A stretch of DNA of 7,745 bases from a virus (lineage: Duplodnaviria > Heunggongvirae > Uroviricota > Caudoviricetes). The notes under the pieces are model-generated. The model ran no database searches, was not told the origin of the DNA, and saw only the letters and a program-made list of their open reading frames with translations. A program made the position numbers and the translations under genes. Below, piece by piece: positions 1,661 to 7,745 of the stretch (positions are counted from its first letter, which is position 1; every line of letters begins with the position of its first letter). The stretch spans positions 1 to 7,745 of the IMG/VR virus record IMGVR_UViG_2671180921_000004; one strand, 5' to 3'.

Positions 1661-2065
1661 TCACTTATTACTGTTCGTTTCCATGGGATTGGCCAAGAAA
1701 TCAAAATAAGGCAGAGTGAACCTACCAAGATTTGACATGAGGATAATTTGCTCGGCATATGTTTTTATATAGGGATATGCCATATTGGGAGCAATGGACC
1801 TTACCTCATATGATTTTGCCATTTCATGAGAAAAATCATCTTCTGACCGGAAGTCAAAGTCGTATGTGATGTCCATCTCAAGCCTGCCTTCAATAGTTAC
1901 GGAGGCAAAATATCTCACTCTAAATAGCTTTGAATCCTTCACATTAGTGTAAAGTTCATTATTTAGATTAACGGTTGTTTTTATGGCTTTTTTTGCTGTT
2001 GAATCGCCTTCTAGCCGTGTCATAACCAAGCGTTCAACTTTTTTGCTAATGAGTTCAATTTTCAT
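1661..2065 (-). CDS. SecB-like chaperone, third gene of a toxin-antitoxin-chaperone (TAC) cassette, 134 aa
   Basis: ORF track 1661..2065. Its start ATG overlaps the upstream gene's stop by 4 bp (ATGA), indicating translational coupling. The C-terminal region ...SIAPNMAYPYIKTYAEQIILMSNLGRFTLPYFDF... resembles the E. coli SecB segment ...[38 protein letters not shown]... as recalled. Size is similar to SecB. Product call is from memory-based similarity only. Confidence 0.6.
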   Translation of the reverse strand: MKIELISKKVERLVMTRLEGDSTAKKAIKTTVNLNNELYTNVKDSKLFRVRYFASVTIEGRLEMDITYDFDFRSEDDFSHEMAKSYEVRSIAPNMAYPYIKTYAEQIILMSNLGRFTLPYFDFLANPMETNSNK

Positions 2066-2718
2066 GGTAATAATAAGTAATTTCCGTCAGAAGTCATTTC
2101 GTCATTCAGGTTGCTAGCCGCTGTGAAACTTGATGACAAGTTACTTATCAAAGAAAAAACATTCCGTTTTTCTTTGCATTTGCCGTTACCCCTTACTGCG
2201 CTGAACAACATTTTTGAAAAGTAAGATTCTGTAGCCTTTTCAGCGAAATAAGCAGAAGGTGATGTGACGGCTGACTCACACCGAGCAATGACGCTAGTCA
2301 TGGCTGTTTCTTCTTCCTCTGCGTCAACTAGGCTCCATTCAATTGCGCTCATATCTTGAATTAAGATATCTGCAGGAATTCCAAGTCCGTCATGTAGTCT
2401 ACGGATCATTGAAAGACTTAATGGACGCTTACGATTTAAGACCTCAGATACTTTAGATGCTGAGCCAATGTATTGTTTCATATCGGCATAAGAGAGGCCT
2501 TGTTGATCCATACGGAACTTGATTGCTTCTATGGGATCTGGCTTGTCCATAGGGAACTCGCGTGACTCATAGTGCTCGATAAGCAAGCCTAGTAGTTCAA
2601 ACTCATCAAAATCTTCAGTTCCAGGTTGTAAATCACTAGACGCAAGTTCAATGAGCCTTTCCATAGCTGCAGCATGCTCTTCACTATTTTTAATGATGCG
2701 CCAGCTAGTTCGATTCAT
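2062..2718 (-). CDS. higA: HigA-family HTH (XRE-type) antitoxin with a ~96-aa C-terminal extension, 218 aa
   Basis: ORF track 2062..2718. Residues about 66-121 (IKFRMDQQGLSYADMKQYIGSASKVSEVLNRKRPLSLSMIRRLHDGLGIPADILI) align with the HTH end of E. coli HigA (...IRTLMDQYGLTLSDLPEIGSKSMVSRVLSGKRKLTLEHAKKLATRFGISPALF) as recalled. GGAGG lies 5 nt upstream of the ATG. 4-bp ATGA overlaps with the HigB stop upstream and the SecB-like start downstream. Confidence 0.8.
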   Translation of the reverse strand: MNRTSWRIIKNSEEHAAAMERLIELASSDLQPGTEDFDEFELLGLLIEHYESREFPMDKPDPIEAIKFRMDQQGLSYADMKQYIGSASKVSEVLNRKRPLSLSMIRRLHDGLGIPADILIQDMSAIEWSLVDAEEEETAMTSVIARCESAVTSPSAYFAEKATESYFSKMLFSAVRGNGKCKEKRNVFSLISNLSSSFTAASNLNDEMTSDGNYLLLP

Positions 2719-3002
2719 TTAAGCCTCCACTTGTCGTACTCTGCATGAGTTCCAACTCTTTCAACTATGACCATTCCTGCCTGGTAAACAACTTGGACAA
2801 CGAGCCGATAGTTATTGCCTTTTATATTAAAAATTACCCTGTTGTTAGGAAGGAAGTCGGCAGAATTAAATCTATTCCGTATGTCTTGAGTCGTTTTCCA
2901 GTTTTCTCTTATCACTTCATCATACCAAGAGTCTAAAGCCCCCTTGGCCTGATTGTGCTTCCGGCTAAAACTGTGAAGCTTCTCTACGTTTAAGACCTTC
3001 AT
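2715..3002 (-). CDS. higB: HigB-family toxin (RelE/ParE superfamily mRNA interferase), 95 aa
   Basis: ORF track 2715..3002. The segment NRVIFNIKGNNYRLVVQVVYQAGMVIVERVGTHAEYDKW aligns with E. coli HigB HYVFNVGGNELRVVAMVFFESQKCYIREVMTHKEYD as recalled. Toxin-first gene order is typical of higBA. Confidence 0.85.
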   Translation of the reverse strand: MKVLNVEKLHSFSRKHNQAKGALDSWYDEVIRENWKTTQDIRNRFNSADFLPNNRVIFNIKGNNYRLVVQVVYQAGMVIVERVGTHAEYDKWRLK

Positions 3003-3024
3003 AATCCGATTTTGTTCCCTCTTT

Positions 3025-3057
3025 GGGAATTATAGATTCATTTCCCATAAAGGGAAT
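3025..3057 (-). promoter_or_regulatory. putative promoter and operator of the higB-higA-secB-like operon: -10 TATAAT (minus strand, plus 3029-3034) flanked by GGGAAT / TTCCC-ataaa-GGGAA inverted repeats
   Basis: A perfect TATAAT hexamer on the minus strand lies 26 nt upstream of the higB ATG. GGGAAT occurs at 3025-3030 and 3052-3057, with TTCCC at 3042-3046 forming the dyad TTCCC-ATAAA-GGGAA. No good -35 is visible. Antitoxin autoregulation sites are typically palindromes over the promoter, which is the basis for the operator call. Confidence 0.35.
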
Positions 3058-3087
3058 CTGTATTTTTATCCAGAAATGCTATGTACA

Positions 3088-3747
3088 TCACCCAAACGTC
3101 TCTTCAGGCCACTGGCTAGCGATAACTTTCCCCACAACGGAACAACTCTCATTGCATGGGATCATTGGGTACTGTGGGTTTAGTGGTTGTAAAAACACCT
3201 GACCGCTATCCCTGATCAGTTTCTTGAAGGTAAATTCATCACCACCAAGTCTGGCTATGCAGAAATCGCCGGGCTCAACAGCTTGCTCTGGGTCAACCAG
3301 AATTAACATCCCGTCAGGAAAACTAGGTTTGGAACCTGTTGGGGCGGTCATTGAGTTACCTTCAACCTCAAGCCAGAATGCAGAGTCACTGGCTTTTTTG
3401 GTTGTGCTTACCAATCTCTCCGCATCGCCTTTGGTAAAGGTTCTGAGTTCTGGAGAGAACATCCCAGCCTGAACATGAGAAAAAACAGGGTACTCATATT
3501 GTTTTTTAACTGGGGCCGATGAGTATTCGCCAACAGGTGAAAATGTCCCGTCGTGGTTGAATGATATGTTATCAATACCAAGGTATTTAAACACCACACC
3601 AATATCACTAAGAGATGGATGACGAGATCCGCGCAACCAGTGTCCAATCCCACCCTGCGTCATACCTAGCTCTTCGGCTAACTTCTCTTGAGTTATGCCG
3701 AGCTCTTTCATTCTGGATCTAGCCAGTTCATACCATTTCATTTTCAT
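3088..3747 (-). CDS. cI: cI-type prophage repressor: heterologous N-terminal HTH domain fused to a lambda-cI-like C-terminal LexA/S24 autocleavage and dimerisation domain, 220 aa
   Basis: The C-terminal ~135 aa ([28 protein letters not shown]...[18 protein letters not shown]) are near-identical to lambda cI as recalled, including the Ala-Gly cleavage region and the catalytic Ser/Lys context. The N-terminal ~85 aa ([45 protein letters not shown]...) are not lambda-like. Start taken at the ATG at 3747 (alternative ATG at 3741); the track ORF extension to 3909 would cross the operator region into cro and is rejected. Confidence 0.9.
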
Positions 3748-3857
3748 GTCCTTATTATTACGCTCTGTATTGCAACCATCCATGCACAATGTGTATTTTT
3801 GCTTGCATTCAAAAAGTACATATTGTATTTTTTCTTCATGGTTACTATGGAGGGCAT
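3748..3857. promoter_or_regulatory. OR region with divergent PRM/PR; PR -35 TTGCAT (3803-3808) and -10 TATTTT (3826-3831); operator-like repeats with TGTATT cores at about 3760-3775, 3784-3799 and 3813-3829
   Basis: 110-bp gap between divergent cI and cro. The motif AAAGTACATATTGTATT (3813-3829) sits in the PR spacer and -10 and matches the PL spacer motif at 15/17 positions. Two further related repeats (CACAATGTGTATTTTT, CTCTGTATTGCAA) recur at about 26-32 bp spacing. Confidence 0.55.
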
Positions 3858-4073
3858 ATGAGCAACCTACGAAAATATCGAGAGTCACTGAATATCTCTC
3901 AAACAACACTTGCTAAGGCAGTTGGATGCACACAGGGAGCTATCGGACATTGGGAATCTGGTCGTCGCTTCCCAGACCTTAAAACATGCCGTGCTCTTGT
4001 TGCGTGTCTAAACAAGTTAGGCGCAAAAGTAAGTCTTGATGACGTGTTCCCGCCGGAGCACAAATCCGCTTAA
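3858..4073 (+). CDS. cro: Cro-like HTH (XRE-family) regulator, 71 aa
   Basis: Start at ATG 3858 with GGAGGG 4 nt upstream. The HTH region [24 protein letters not shown] parallels the cI N-terminal HTH ([24 protein letters not shown]), as expected for two proteins sharing operators. Divergent from cI. The longer track ORF from 3789 lacks an RBS and overlaps the operators. Confidence 0.8.
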
Positions 4074-4083
4074 TAAGCGGAGC

Positions 4084-4129
4084 CGCTCTTTGTAACAACG
4101 GACATTCGTCCTACGTCGCTGAAAAGCGA
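4084..4129 (+). promoter_or_regulatory. nutR: nutR site: boxA CGCTCTTTGTAACAAC (4084-4099) and boxB hairpin UCGCU-GAAA-AGCGA (4116-4129)
   Basis: Immediately downstream of cro. Near-identical in architecture and sequence to the nutL elements on the opposite strand (boxA GCTCTTT..AACAAC; boxB N-GCU-GAAA-AGC-N). Confidence 0.6.
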
Positions 4130-4214
4130 GCCCCAAGATATCTGACCAACTAAGGCCATATGCGTTTCCACGCATACCTTTCAACTAACTATTCACTATT
4201 GGAAATCTTAAGAA

Positions 4215-4511
4215 ATGGAACAAACAAGTTACAGCAAACTATCACAGCGTGACGTTGATCGCGCAGAAACAGATTTACTCATCAACCTGTCAACGCTTAC
4301 CCAGCGTGGTCTGGCAAAGATGATTGGCTGTCATGAATCGAAGATAAGCAGAACGGACTGGCGGTTTATTGCTTCGGTCTTGTGTGCTTTCGGAATGGCA
4401 TCAGACATCAGTCCAATTAGCAGGGCTTTTAAGTATGCGCTTGATGGAATCACAAAGAAAAAACGCCCGGCGGCAACCGAGCGTTCTGAACAAATCCAGA
4501 TGGAGTTCTGA
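4215..4511 (+). CDS. cII: cII-like transcriptional activator, 98 aa, with a lambda-identical C-terminal tail and a divergent N-terminal region
   Basis: The C-terminal 18-19 aa (KKKRPAATERSEQIQMEF) match the lambda cII C-terminus as recalled. The N-terminal ~80 aa differ from lambda. Position between cro/nutR and O is canonical. Confidence 0.8.
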   Translation: MEQTSYSKLSQRDVDRAETDLLINLSTLTQRGLAKMIGCHESKISRTDWRFIASVLCAFGMASDISPISRAFKYALDGITKKKRPAATERSEQIQMEF

Positions 4512-4533
4512 GGTCATTACTGGATCTATCAAC
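4457..4533 (-). ncRNA. oop: oop antisense RNA (about 77 nt), antisense to the 3' end of cII, with its rho-independent terminator
   Basis: The minus-strand sequence GTTGATAGATCCAGTAATGACCTCAGAACTCCATCTGGATTTGTTCAGAACGCTCGGTTGCCGCCGGGCGTTTTTT matches the lambda oop RNA as recalled. GC-rich hairpin (plus 4464-4483) followed by a U-tract. Confidence 0.6.
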
Positions 4534-4543
4534 AGGAGTCATT

Positions 4544-5443
4544 ATGACAAATACAGCAAAAATACTCAACTTCGGCAGAGGTAACTTTGCCGGACAGGAG
4601 CGTAATGTGGCAGATCTCGATGATGGTTACGCCAGACTATCAAATATGCTGCTTGAGGCTTATTCAGGCGCAGATCTGACCAAGCGACAGTTTAAAGTGC
4701 TGCTTGCCATTCTGCGTAAAACCTATGGGTGGAATAAACCAATGGACAGAATCACCGATTCTCAACTTAGCGAGATTACAAAGTTACCCGTCAAACGGTG
4801 CAATGAAGCCAAGTTAGAACTCGTCAGAATGAATATTATCAAGCAGCAAGGCGGCATGTTTGGACCAAATAAAAACATCTCAGAATGGTGTATCCCTCAA
4901 AACGAGGGAAAATCCCCTAAAACGAGGGATAAAACATCCCTCAAATTGGGGGATTGCTATCCCTCAAAACAGGGGGACACAAAAGACACTATTACAAAAG
5001 AAAAAAGAAAAGATTATTCGTCCGAGAATTCTGGCGAATCCTCTGACCAGCCAGAAAACGATCTTTCTGTGGTTAAACCGGATGCTGCAATTCAGAGCGG
5101 CAGCAAGTGGGGAACAGCAGAAGACCTGACCGCCGCAGAGTGGATGTTTGACATGGTGAAGACCATCGCGCCATCAGCCAGAAAACCGAATTTTGCTGGG
5201 TGGGCTAACGATATCCGCCTGATGCGTGAACGTGACGGACGTAACCACCGCGATATGTGTGTGCTTTTCCGCTGGGCCTGCCAGGACAACTTCTGGTCCG
5301 GTAACGTGCTGAGTCCGGCCAAACTCCGCGACAAGTGGACCCAGCTCGAAATCAACCGTAACAAGCAACAGGCAGGCGTGACAGCCAGCAAACCAAAACT
5401 CGACCTGACAAACACTGACTGGATTTACGGGGTGGATTTATGA
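4544..5443 (+). CDS. O: replication initiation protein O (origin-binding), 299 aa
   Basis: Translation matches lambda O as recalled (MTNTAKILNFGRGNFAGQERNVADLDDGYARLSNMLLEAY...). AGGAG RBS upstream. Contains the ori iterons internally. Stop overlaps the P start (ATGA). Confidence 0.95.
   Translation: MTNTAKILNFGRGNFAGQERNVADLDDGYARLSNMLLEAYSGADLTKRQFKVLLAILRKTYGWNKPMDRITDSQLSEITKLPVKRCNEAKLELVRMNIIKQQGGMFGPNKNISEWCIPQNEGKSPKTRDKTSLKLGDCYPSKQGDTKDTITKEKRKDYSSENSGESSDQPENDLSVVKPDAAIQSGSKWGTAEDLTAAEWMFDMVKTIAPSARKPNFAGWANDIRLMRERDGRNHRDMCVLFRWACQDNFWSGNVLSPAKLRDKWTQLEINRNKQQAGVTASKPKLDLTNTDWIYGVDL
4892..5016. other. origin of replication (ori-lambda type): four ~19-bp iterons with internal dyad TCCCTC-N5-GAGGGA, followed by an AT-rich DNA-unwinding region
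   Basis: Iterons visible at about 4892-4910, 4911-4930, 4931-4955 and 4956-4980 (ATCCCTCAAAACGAGGGAA, ATCCCCTAAAACGAGGGAT, ATCCCTCAAATTGGGGGAT, ATCCCTCAAAACAGGGGGA), then AAAAGACACTATTACAAAAGAAAAAAGAAAAGATTA. Located inside the O coding sequence as in lambda. Confidence 0.85.
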
Positions 5444-6141
5444 AAAACATCGCCGCACAGATGGTTAACTTTGACCGTGAGCAGATGCGTCGGATCGCCA
5501 ACAACATGCCGGAACAGTACGACGAAAAGCTGCAGGTACAGCAGGTTGCGCAGATCATCAACGGTGTGTTCAGCCAGTTACTGGCAACTTTCCCGGCGAG
5601 TCTGGCTAACCGTGACCAGAACGAACTGAACGAAATCCGCCGCCAGTGGGTTCTGGCTTTCCGGGAAAACGGGATCACCACAATGGAACAGGTTAACGCA
5701 GGAATGCGCGTAGCCCGTCGGCAGAATCGACCATTTCTGCCATCACCCGGGCAGTTTGTTGCATGGTGCCGGGAAGAAGCATCCGTTATCGCCGGACTGC
5801 CAAACGTCAGCGAGCTGGTTGATATGGTTTACGAGTATTGCCGGAAGCGAGGCCTGTATCCGGATGCAGAGTCTTATCCGTGGAAATCGAACGCGCACTA
5901 CTGGCTGGTTACCAACCTGTATCAGAACATGCGGGCCAATGCGCTTACTGATGCGGAATTACGCCGTAAGGCCGCAGATGAGCTTGTCCATATGACTGCG
6001 AGAATTAACCGTGGTGAGGCGATCCCTGAACCAGTAAAACAACTTCCTGTCATGGGCGGTAGACCTCTAAATCGTGCACAGGCTCTGGCGAAGATCGCAG
6101 AACTCAAAGCTAAGTTCGGACTGAAAGGAGCAAGTGTATGA
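5440..6141 (+). CDS. P: replication protein P (DnaB helicase loader), 233 aa
   Basis: Translation matches lambda P as recalled (MKNIAAQMVNFDREQMRRIANNMPEQYDEK...). ATGA overlap with the O stop. Confidence 0.95.
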   Translation: MKNIAAQMVNFDREQMRRIANNMPEQYDEKLQVQQVAQIINGVFSQLLATFPASLANRDQNELNEIRRQWVLAFRENGITTMEQVNAGMRVARRQNRPFLPSPGQFVAWCREEASVIAGLPNVSELVDMVYEYCRKRGLYPDAESYPWKSNAHYWLVTNLYQNMRANALTDAELRRKAADELVHMTARINRGEAIPEPVKQLPVMGGRPLNRAQALAKIAELKAKFGLKGASV

Positions 6142-6428
6142 CGGGCAAAGAGGCAATTATTCATTACCTGGGGACGCATAATAGCTTCTGTGCGCCGGAC
6201 GTTGCCGCGCTAACAGGCGCAACAGTAACCAGCATAAATCAGGCCGCGGCTAAAATGGCACGGGCAGGTCTTCTGGTTATCGAAGGTAAGGTCTGGCGAA
6301 CGGTGTATTACCGGTTTGCTACCAAGGAAGAACGGGAAGGAAAGATGAGCACGAACCTAATTTTTAAGGAGTGTCGCCAGAGTGCCGCGATGAAACGGGT
6401 ATTGGCGGTATATGGAGTTAAAAGGTGA
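6138..6428 (+). CDS. ren: Ren protein (confers resistance to Rex exclusion in lambda), 96 aa
   Basis: Translation MTGKEAIIHYLGTHNSFCAPDVAALTGATVTSINQAAAKMARAG... matches lambda Ren as recalled. ATGA overlap with the P stop. Confidence 0.8.
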   Translation: MTGKEAIIHYLGTHNSFCAPDVAALTGATVTSINQAAAKMARAGLLVIEGKVWRTVYYRFATKEEREGKMSTNLIFKECRQSAAMKRVLAVYGVKR

Positions 6429-6453
6429 CCATCTACATCACTGAGCTAATAAC

Positions 6454-6486
6454 AGGCCTGCTGGTAATCGCAGGCCTTTTTATTTG
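6454..6486 (+). terminator. rho-independent terminator (tR2-like) downstream of ren
   Basis: Hairpin AGGCCTGC-tggtaatc-GCAGGCCT (8-bp perfect stem) followed by TTTTTATTT on the plus strand. Confidence 0.65.
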
Positions 6487-6500
6487 GGGGAGAGTAAATC

Positions 6501-6707
6501 GTGGTTGAGTTGATTTTTTCTGCATTGAGGATTCTCGGTGCTATGTGGATGGTGTCGACGTTCATTGCGGTTGTCGGAAGTTTTGTCCGGTTGGTAGGCG
6601 AAGGTAAAGACCTGGTGGGTGTGCTGTTCGGTAGCATTCTCCTGTGGGTGATTATCGGTGTTGCGCCTGTCGCTGTAGCAAAAATGGCGTGGCGTTTTGT
6701 TAGTTGA
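6501..6707 (+). CDS. small hydrophobic protein with two predicted transmembrane segments, 68 aa (GTG start)
   Basis: ORF track 6501..6707. Two hydrophobic stretches (ILGAMWMVSTFIAVVGSFV and LVGVLFGSILLWVIIGVAPVAVA). GGGGAGAG lies about 6 nt upstream of the GTG. Coding status is uncertain: short, non-ATG start. Confidence 0.4.
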   Translation: MVELIFSALRILGAMWMVSTFIAVVGSFVRLVGEGKDLVGVLFGSILLWVIIGVAPVAVAKMAWRFVS

Positions 6708-6714
6708 GGGGAAT

Positions 6715-6993
6715 ATGAGCGAGATCTACCGACAATTCGAAGAGTGGTGGTCAAAACACAAAAGCCCGTTCACGGAAGACGATGAGCTAAAAGAGTTTGC
6801 CTGGGAGATATGGCAGGCATCGCGAGCAACTATTGAACTGGATATCGACTGGCCCGAATCGAATGACGACTTTTGGAAAGATGGTGAAGAAGGTGCTTAT
6901 GCGATGGGTTATGAGGATGGGCGTGACAAAACGGTAATTGCAGTAATGAAAGCCATCAGGGCCGCAGGAATCAAAGAAAAGAATTTCGATTAA
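6715..6993 (+). CDS. hypothetical small acidic, Trp-rich protein, 92 aa
   Basis: Start taken at ATG 6715 (MSEIYRQFEEWW...), preceded by GAGGGG. About a quarter of residues are Asp/Glu. No recognised family. Confidence 0.55.
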   Translation: MSEIYRQFEEWWSKHKSPFTEDDELKEFAWEIWQASRATIELDIDWPESNDDFWKDGEEGAYAMGYEDGRDKTVIAVMKAIRAAGIKEKNFD

Positions 6994-7125
6994 GCAAATA
7001 TCACTTCAATAAATCGCTTTTAAGGCATCACAATCGCTCTGTAGTGAGGTAAGTGCGTGCAAGGAATGCCGATAAGCAGCGAGAATGAAAAATGCGTCAG
7101 AATGCGTTTGAGGAGGTTTTAAGAA

Positions 7126-7341
7126 ATGAGTACGGTAGCTGAACTTGTCAGGGCTAATTTTCGTGAAGAGTTGGTGCGTTGGTATCGGTATCGTTCATCG
7201 TCCAGTTTGCCGCTTGATGAGTTGTATGAGCATTCACCTGCCGCACGACGCTATCCGCGTGACCGTGTTCTTCGACGGTTGTTCAAACTCAACAATGAGT
7301 TTCAGCGCAACAGAATTATCCGGAGTCTGGATTTAAAGTGA
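7126..7341 (+). CDS. hypothetical small basic protein, 71 aa
   Basis: ORF track 7126..7341. Strong AGGAGG RBS about 9 nt upstream of the ATG. Arg-rich. No recognised family. Confidence 0.45.
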   Translation: MSTVAELVRANFREELVRWYRYRSSSSLPLDELYEHSPAARRYPRDRVLRRLFKLNNEFQRNRIIRSLDLK

Positions 7342-7351
7342 AGGAGTGAGC

Positions 7352-7534
7352 ATGAGCGAGCAAATATTCAGAGAGATTAAGCCACGGTTTTATCGCAAGG
7401 TAAGGGTGGTTTATCAGGACGAAAACAAGACCTGTGCATACGCCATTCATAATGGTCGGTGGTCAGTGTTCGACACCAAAAACTTCGAGAAGAACTTCGA
7501 GAGGATTAAGGGTGATGAGGAAACTAACATTTGA
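7352..7534 (+). CDS. hypothetical small protein, 60 aa
   Basis: Start taken at ATG 7352 (MSEQIFREIK...) with AAGGAG 5 nt upstream; the track ORF begins at the GTG at 7346. Its 3' end overlaps the ninB-like start by 20 nt. Confidence 0.45.
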   Translation: MSEQIFREIKPRFYRKVRVVYQDENKTCAYAIHNGRWSVFDTKNFEKNFERIKGDEETNI

Positions 7535-7745
7535 ACTAAGAAGCCCCATCCATCAGCAGAACGCCATTCCAGCTAGCCAGCAAATCCTGCCAGCCCCAAC
7601 CTAACCAACCGTAGTAACCATTCAGGACCGCAACCGTAGCTTAGACCACAACCGAAAGCTCCGAGATTGCCCTGGTGACGTCTCGCGTCAGGTTGAATGG
7701 CCGGATAGTTGTCTGGATGCCGAAAGCTGGACGTGTGTGTTTACC
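7515..7745 (+). pseudogene. ninB: ninB/Orf-family recombination protein homologue, interrupted by an in-frame TAA at 7602-7604 and truncated by the window end
   Basis: Frame from ATG 7515 reads MRKLTFELRSPIHQQNAIPASQQILPAPT*PTVVTIQDRNRSLDHNRKLRDCPGDVSRQVEWPDSCLDAESWTCVFT, versus lambda NinB MKKLTFEIRSPAHQQNAIHAVQQILPDPTKPIVVTIQERNRSLDQNRKLWACLGDVSRQVEWHGRWLDAESWKCVFT as recalled. The stop replaces the Lys codon at position 30. Not in the ORF track because of the stop. Confidence 0.5.

What the first reader, a model, noticed from the sequence alone, without database searches (positions are those of the whole stretch)
7515..7745. ninB/Orf homologue carries an in-frame ochre codon at codon 30
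The reading frame is otherwise colinear with lambda NinB. A TAA at 7602-7604 replaces the Lys codon (..ILPAPT*PTVVTIQ.. versus ..ILPDPTKPIVVTIQ..). This could be a genuine inactivating mutation in a decaying or cryptic prophage, a sequencing error, or a site suppressed in the host. The upstream 60-aa ORF also overlaps the ninB start by 20 nt.
Basis: partly seen in the sequence, partly recalled or inferred. Interest (0 to 1): 0.4.

Follow-up and report, generated by a model that had tools for sequence, protein, structure and literature searches.

The report
Sequencing-error tail at a contig end
The stop codon in the phage ninB gene is real in the deposited text, but it is one of 22 random-looking base errors packed into the last 176 bases of a short draft-assembly contig, so it is almost certainly an assembly artefact and not biology.

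Summary
ninB starts at ATG 7515, and TAA at 7602-7604 replaces the Lys-30 codon AAA. The upstream 60-aa ORF overlaps ninB by 20 nt, exactly as in intact relatives.

The stop is not an isolated mutation. The window is the complete 7,745-nt contig LOCS01000066.1 of the E. coli-type draft assembly GCA_001606755.1, so ninB is cut off by the contig end.

Against its closest relatives (L012, L011), the window has 0 mismatches over 1,120 nt (6450-7569). It then has 22 substitutions and no indels in 7570-7732, inside the final 176 nt (P about 8e-20 under uniform placement).

- Fifteen of the 22 are transversions, 12 are changes to C, and 17 start from A or T.
- They alter 15 codons, including Trp50, Trp66, His63 and Gly64. 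Random substitution predicts 15.7 ± 1.9 altered codons and a 62% chance of at least one stop.
- Eight fetched natural alleles and lambda NinB (PDB 1PC6) have identical protein over residues 22-77.
- No fetched locus contains any 13-mer spanning a variant. The best identity among 1,370 E. coli records with a ninB match and 221 phage records is 86-87.6%.

Verdict: a low-quality read tail left at a contig end at a prophage repeat. It is not a cryptic-prophage mutation and not a suppressed codon. Interest is very low.

The parts
7515..7745 (+). 5' part (77 codons) of a lambda-type ninB/orf gene, cut off by the end of the contig
   Evidence: The conceptual translation hits Pfam NinB PF05772 at 59.7 bits against a cutoff of 23.8, matching profile positions 2-76 of 131. 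Intact 146-aa relatives align without gaps. The contig is 7,745 nt long, the same as the window.
7602..7604 (+). In-frame TAA at codon 30, an AAA to TAA change relative to all natural alleles
   Evidence: The exact 30-mer around it is absent from the genome contigs, viral contigs and metagenome contigs collections.
7570..7745 (.). Terminal error tail: 22 substitutions at 7570-7732, no indels, 12.5% divergence. One of them (7586 T>C) is shared with other natural alleles; the rest are private.
   Evidence: The mismatch lists against L012 and L011 are. The spectrum is 15 transversions to 7 transitions, 12 of 22 changes to C, and 16 nonsynonymous to 6 synonymous. No 13-mer around any variant occurs in any other fetched locus. 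The best identity elsewhere is 87.6% in E. coli genomes and 86.0% in phages.
6450..7569 (+). Error-free part of the nin-region module (68-aa ORF, phiTE_015-family ORF, DUF7301, 60-aa ORF, first 18 codons of ninB), 100% identical to L012 and L011
   Evidence: There are 0 mismatches in 1,120 nt against L012, and none against L011 after position 6425.
7352..7534 (+). 60-aa ORF whose 3' end overlaps the ninB start by 20 nt. This is the normal arrangement.
   Evidence: where L011, L015 and L016 show the same overlap with an intact NinB.

Best explanation
The ochre codon is an artefact of a draft assembly. The window is a whole short contig that ends inside ninB. This happens because the nin region downstream of about 6449 is a module shared between lambdoid prophages, and short-read assemblies break there. 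The last 176 nt of the contig were most likely built from one or very few low-quality read ends (an unclipped 'tip'), which introduced 22 substitution miscalls. One of those miscalls turns AAA (Lys30) into TAA. The real prophage almost certainly encodes an ordinary 146-aa NinB/Orf recombination mediator.

Shown here: the contig end, the abrupt onset of the substitutions, their non-natural spectrum, the absence of selection, and their uniqueness to this record. Inferred: that the cause is low read support or low base quality, and which sequencing platform was used.
For: 1. The window is the entire contig LOCS01000066.1 of GCA_001606755.1, with contig length 7,745. L019 is identical to window 2440-7745.
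2. Against L012 there are 0 mismatches in 6450-7569 (1,120 nt), then 22 in 7570-7732. The probability that all 22 fall in the last 176 of 1,296 nt is 8e-20.
3. There are no indels. Transversions outnumber transitions 15 to 7. Seventeen changes start from A or T and 12 end at C. In the body of the same window the differences from L011 are 23 transitions to 18 transversions and 28 synonymous to 8 nonsynonymous, against 6 synonymous to 16 nonsynonymous in the tail.
4. Fifteen codons are altered. Random substitution predicts 15.7 ± 1.9, with P(at least one stop) = 0.62. This means no purifying selection acted on the tail.
5. Eight natural alleles differing by up to about 8% in DNA encode an identical protein over codons 19-77. 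Lambda NinB (1PC6) matches them over residues 22-103.
6. The variants occur nowhere else. No 13-mer matches in any other fetched locus. The best identity is 87.6% among 1,370 E. coli records with a ninB match and 86.0% among 221 phage records. The exact 30-mer is absent from three large collections.
7. Other draft assemblies of the same prophage break in this region. L020 (0 mismatches to the window), L021 and L022 all end exactly at window 6448. The DUF7301-ninB stretch (7100-7745) occurs up to 4 times per E. coli genome.
8. Published Illumina error profiles fit the pattern: substitutions are about 1000 times more frequent than indels, they rise towards read ends, and A and T are the most error-prone bases (PMC4787001).
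Against: No reads, coverage or quality values could be inspected, so the cause of the miscalls is inferred and not seen. The sequencing platform and assembler of GCA_001606755.1 were not found. The 5' end of the contig shows no comparable tail, only one private T>G at position 28, so the effect is one-sided. The substitutions are partly clumped (7661-7672 and 7702-7712) and do not form a smooth ramp.
Confidence: 0.9

Rival explanations
1. Genuine decay. The strain really carries a heavily mutated, non-functional ninB remnant, for example at the edge of a deletion or recombination junction in a cryptic prophage, and the contig happens to end inside it.
For: Lambdoid prophages are mosaic, and sharp identity boundaries are common. 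One is visible at 6448/6449. Nonsense mutations and loss of conserved Trp residues are what a pseudogene looks like.
Against: The divergent block starts 176 nt from a contig end. It has no indels, which is unusual for old pseudogenes. The direction of change is from A/T to C/G (17 of 22 from A/T, 15 of 22 to C/G), the opposite of the usual bacterial bias towards AT (own knowledge). Transversions dominate at 15 to 7. No allele intermediate between this tail and normal ninB exists in 1,370 E. coli or 221 phage records. All other genes in the window are intact.
Confidence: 0.05
2. Collapsed-repeat chimera. This is still an artefact. The tail would be a consensus that mixes reads from several different ninB paralogues in a polylysogenic genome.
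For: The DUF7301-ninB stretch (7100-7745) occurs up to 4 times per genome, and contigs break in this region.
Against: A mixture of natural alleles would contain natural variants. Here 21 of 22 variant bases are seen in no natural allele that was fetched, and no 13-mer around a variant occurs in any other locus. The second allele class (L002, L003) does not share them either.
Confidence: 0.04
3. A functional gene with a read-through or suppressed ochre codon, by programmed recoding or a suppressor tRNA in the host or phage.
For: Only that the frame stays open after the TAA up to the contig end.
Against: The stop is not conserved in any relative; all have AAA. The downstream frame carries 10 further replacements, including W50R, L53P, H63P, G64D and W66C, at residues invariant in natural lambda-type alleles. 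Read-through would therefore not rescue a normal protein.
Confidence: 0.01

Closest known systems
Bacteriophage lambda NinB / Orf recombination mediator (Pfam PF05772; crystal structure PDB 1PC6)
   Same: It sits in the same position in the nin region, downstream of O, P and ren. The first 18 codons are identical to natural alleles. The nearest intact relative (L012) matches 1PC6 at E = 1.7e-94, with residues 22-103 identical. The window's conceptual translation still scores 59.7 bits against PF05772.
   Different: In this record the gene is truncated at codon 77 by the contig end. It carries TAA at codon 30 and 14 other codon changes that are found in no natural allele.
Unclipped low-quality read tails ('tips') at the ends of short-read draft contigs next to repeats
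   Same: The tail is at the very end of a 7.7-kb contig. It starts abruptly after perfect identity, consists only of substitutions, mostly affects A and T, shows no selection, and is unique to this record.
   Different: Read-level support could not be examined. Only one contig end is affected.
Nonsense-mutated genes of cryptic lambdoid prophages (such as the defective prophages of E. coli K-12)
   Same: An in-frame stop in a phage accessory gene.
   Different: Real prophage decay is scattered over many genes, includes indels and IS insertions, and is shared by related strains. Here the rest of the window is intact, and the changes are confined to the contig terminus and seen in no other record.

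Membership tests
NinB/Orf (PF05772) | Sequence match to the family profile above the curated cutoff | tested here: met
   The window's conceptual translation (stop written as X) scores 59.7 bits against a cutoff of 23.8. The intact relative L012 scores 183.2 bits and matches PDB 1PC6 at E = 1.7e-94.
NinB/Orf (PF05772) | Position in the nin region of a lambdoid phage, downstream of the replication genes | tested here: met
   The gene order is cII, O, P, ren, 68 aa, phiTE_015, DUF7301, 60 aa, NinB, identical to L011 and L015.
NinB/Orf (PF05772) | Uninterrupted reading frame of about 146 codons | tested here: not met
   There is a TAA at codon 30, and the record ends at codon 77. This is judged to be a property of the record, not of the phage.
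Contig-end sequencing/assembly error tail | The anomaly abuts the physical end of an assembled contig | tested here: met
   The window is the whole contig LOCS01000066.1 of 7,745 nt, and the variants lie 14-176 nt from its end.
Contig-end sequencing/assembly error tail | Abrupt change from near-perfect identity to dense private mismatches | tested here: met
   The rate is 0 in 1,120 nt and then 22 in 176 nt, P = 8e-20.
Contig-end sequencing/assembly error tail | Changes behave as random noise: no codon-position or selection signal and a non-natural spectrum | tested here: met
   The tail has 16 nonsynonymous to 6 synonymous changes and 15 codons altered, against 15.7 ± 1.9 expected at random. 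Transversions outnumber transitions 15 to 7. The body of the window has 28 synonymous to 8 nonsynonymous.
Contig-end sequencing/assembly error tail | Variants absent from every independent sequence | tested here: met
Contig-end sequencing/assembly error tail | Low read depth or low base quality over the tail | not testable with these tools
   Raw reads are not available here, and the platform and assembler were not found.
Pseudogene of a decaying or cryptic prophage | Other genes of the prophage also disrupted, and lesions shared with related strains | tested here: not met
   All other genes in the window are intact with the same lengths as in relatives. An independent assembly of the same prophage (L020) is identical over 2440-6448. 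No other record carries the lesion.
Programmed stop-codon read-through or suppression | The stop codon is conserved among relatives, with conserved coding sequence downstream | tested here: not met
   All relatives have AAA. Downstream residues that are invariant in natural alleles are replaced here.
Diversity-generating retroelement target | Adenine-specific changes, a template repeat and a reverse transcriptase nearby | tested here: not met
   Only 9 of 22 changes are at A. The window holds no second copy of the stretch. No ORF in the window was identified as a reverse transcriptase.

The most novel reading that the evidence does not exclude
The strain really carries a locally hypermutated ninB. 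A process targeted at about 170 nt would have introduced 22 mostly A/T-to-C/G substitutions without indels, next to 1.1 kb of unchanged sequence. That would point to an unusual localised mutagenic mechanism acting on a prophage recombination gene.
Probability: 0.03. Interest if true: 0.4.

Novelty: not a real feature. Interest (0 to 1): 0.03.

Why it matters
It has no biological importance. Its practical value is as a caution. Premature stops and odd residues within the last few hundred bases of a short draft contig, especially in repeated prophage modules, should be compared with close relatives before being read as pseudogenisation, recoding or suppression. Genome-scan pipelines could mask or down-weight contig termini. 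Pseudogene counts taken from draft assemblies may be inflated by such tails.

Tried and rejected
1. I looked for the exact variant sequence elsewhere. A 30-mer around the TAA was scanned against genome contigs, viral contigs and metagenome contigs, with 0 matches in each. Genome contigs holds only one genome per species, so that negative is weak on its own.
2. I looked up the 56-aa ORF ending at the TAA (7434-7604) in the gene-position index. It is not on record.
3. The search for homologous proteins with the 47-aa post-stop peptide returned 'no candidate shares three 5-residue words'. Natural NinB shares at least 9 such words with the query, so this is a sensitivity limit for short queries and not evidence. 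I disregarded it.
4. I tried to find a paper describing the assembly by searching for LOCS00000000, LOCS01, LOFW01 and GCA_001606755. The only hit, PMC6267907, merely cites an LOFW01 contig as a BLAST subject. The platform remains unknown.
5. I tested whether the 5' contig end has a matching error tail. It does not; there is only one private mismatch, at position 28.
6. I considered a divergent natural allele. This was rejected because both natural NinB allele classes keep the residues changed here and none is closer than 87.6%.
7. I considered a DGR-type mechanism. This was rejected because the changes are not adenine-specific and the window holds no template repeat.
8. The apparent cluster of private mismatches at 6701-6850 in the first 8-locus scan disappeared once closer relatives were fetched (L012 and L011). 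It was a sampling effect.

Full report
**What is in the sequence.** The window is the early region of a lambdoid prophage. On the minus strand it holds kil/cIII, an Nmad5-like gene, N, a HigB/HTH pair and a LexA-type cI. On the plus strand it holds cro, cII, O (299 aa), P (233 aa), ren, three small ORFs, a DUF7301 gene, a 60-aa ORF and the start of ninB.

ninB begins at ATG 7515. Translating 7515-7745 gives MRKLTFELRSPIHQQNAIPASQQILPAPT*PTVVTIQDRNRSLDHNRKLRDCPGDVSRQVEWPDSCLDAESWTCVFT.

The 60-aa ORF (7352-7534) overlaps ninB by 20 nt. The same overlap is annotated in relatives whose NinB is intact, so it is ordinary.

**Where the window comes from.** An exact-protein look-up with the P protein returned NCBI contig LOCS01000066.1 of draft assembly GCA_001606755.1. 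Its length is 7,745 nt, the same as the window, and the returned locus L019 is identical to window 2440-7745. The window is therefore a complete short contig, and ninB is cut by the contig end.

**The stop is not alone.** An alignment with three relatives first showed that mismatches unique to the window start near 7570 and continue to the end. Closer relatives came from a look-up with the DUF7301 protein.

- Against L012 (GCA_039763785.1) the window has 2 mismatches at the 6448/6449 mosaic junction.
- It then has 0 mismatches in 6450-7569 (1,120 nt).
- It then has 22 substitutions in 7570-7732, with no indels.
- L011, a metagenome scaffold with the same gene order and an intact 146-aa NinB, gives the same 22.
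- If 22 mismatches were placed uniformly over those 1,296 nt, the chance that all fall in the last 176 is 8e-20.

**Nature of the changes.**

- A>C 7, T>C 5, T>G 3, A>T 2, G>A 2, C>A 2, G>T 1.
- Transversions outnumber transitions 15 to 7. Seventeen of 22 changes start from A or T, and 12 of 22 end at C.
- Sixteen are nonsynonymous and 6 synonymous.
- For comparison, the 41 differences between the same window and L011 in 4450-7569 are 23 transitions to 18 transversions, and 28 synonymous to 8 nonsynonymous.

Fifteen codons are altered: Q19P, I21S, D27A, K30*, I32T, E38D, Q45H, W50R, A51D, L53P, H63P, G64D, R65S, W66C and K73T. A simulation of 22 random substitutions in this stretch gives 15.7 ± 1.9 altered codons and at least one stop in 62% of trials. 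The tail therefore behaves like unselected noise, and a stop codon is an expected by-product.

**Comparison with natural alleles.** Natural lambda-type alleles differ from each other by up to about 8% in DNA in this stretch, yet encode the same protein. Eight fetched loci are identical over codons 19-77 and one has a single T-to-S change. Lambda NinB itself (PDB 1PC6) is identical to L012 over residues 22-103. A second, much more divergent allele class (L002, L003) still keeps Q19, I21, D27, K30, I32 and E38.

**Uniqueness.**

- None of the 13-mers centred on the 22 variants occurs in any other fetched locus.
- Over 7560-7745 the best identity among 1,370 E. coli records with a match (from 5,426 complete genomes) is 87.6%. 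Among 221 phage records it is 86.0%.
- The stretch just upstream finds matches at 97-100%.
- A 30-mer around the TAA has no exact match in three large contig collections.

**Why a contig would end here.** Three other draft assemblies carry the identical P protein. One of them, L020, has 0 mismatches to window 2440-6448. The contigs of L020, L021 and L022 all stop exactly at window 6448. That is the point where homology to the widely shared nin-region module begins. The DUF7301-ninB stretch (7100-7745) occurs up to four times per complete E. coli genome.

The region downstream of 6449 is therefore a repeat that fragments short-read assemblies. In this assembly the contig was carried 1.3 kb further and ends in a stretch that looks like an unclipped low-quality read end.

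Published Illumina error profiles fit this picture. Substitutions are about 1000 times more frequent than indels, they rise towards read ends, and A and T are the most error-prone bases (PMC4787001). I could not establish which platform or assembler was used, so this last step is inference.

**Rival explanations.**

- *Real pseudogene remnant.* This cannot be excluded without reads. Several points argue against it: the block coincides with the contig end, it has no indels, its direction of change (A/T to C/G, transversion-rich) is the opposite of the usual bacterial mutational bias, there are no intermediate alleles, and every other gene in the window is intact.
- *Consensus mixing several ninB paralogues.* This is unlikely because the variant bases are not those of any natural allele.
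- *Read-through or suppression.* This is unsupported. The stop is not conserved, and the downstream frame is itself damaged at invariant residues.
- *DGR-like mechanism.* The changes are not adenine-specific and the window holds no template repeat.
- *Error at both contig ends.* The 5' end has only one private mismatch (T>G at position 28), so the defect is one-sided.

**Verdict.** More precisely, it is a contig-end error tail with about 21 private miscalls, not a single-base error. The underlying gene is an ordinary lambda-type ninB/orf. Confidence in the artefact reading is about 0.9. Novelty: not a real feature. Interest is about 0.03.

Noticed in passing
window 6448-6449: This is a mosaic and repeat boundary. 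Contigs from three other draft assemblies that carry the identical P protein (L020 with 0 mismatches, L021 and L022) all end exactly at window 6448. From 6450 the window becomes 100% identical to an unrelated set of prophages (L012, L011). It is a clean example of a lambdoid module junction that also breaks short-read assemblies.
   Followed up: partly
window 28: There is a single private T>G (TTTTTGGG becomes TTTTGGGG) 28 nt from the 5' contig end, in the kil/cIII overlap. It is absent from the three E. coli genomes aligned. It may be a second, minor end-of-contig miscall.
   Followed up: partly
window 2062-3002 (- strand): A HigB-family toxin gene (95 aa, 2715-3002) and an adjacent 218-aa helix-turn-helix protein (2062-2718) lie between N and cI, as in phage BP-4795 and Stx1a phages. 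This is a toxin-antitoxin-like pair inside the immunity region.
   Followed up: no
window 4892-4978: Four roughly 20-nt iterons (ATCCCTCAAAACGAGGGAAA and variants, spaced 20-24 nt apart) lie inside the O gene. This is the lambda-type replication origin.
   Followed up: no
window 5964-6024: There is a dense cluster of mostly third-position differences from L011 inside the P gene (about 14 in 60 nt). It has a natural-looking spectrum and looks like a small recombination patch. It gives a useful contrast with the error tail.
   Followed up: no
window 7605-7745 (query): the search for homologous proteins reported no candidate sharing three 5-residue words with the 47-aa post-stop peptide. Natural NinB shares at least 9 such words with it (for example GDVSRQVEW). 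Short queries seem to fall below the tool's indexing sensitivity, so that negative should not be taken as evidence.
   Followed up: no
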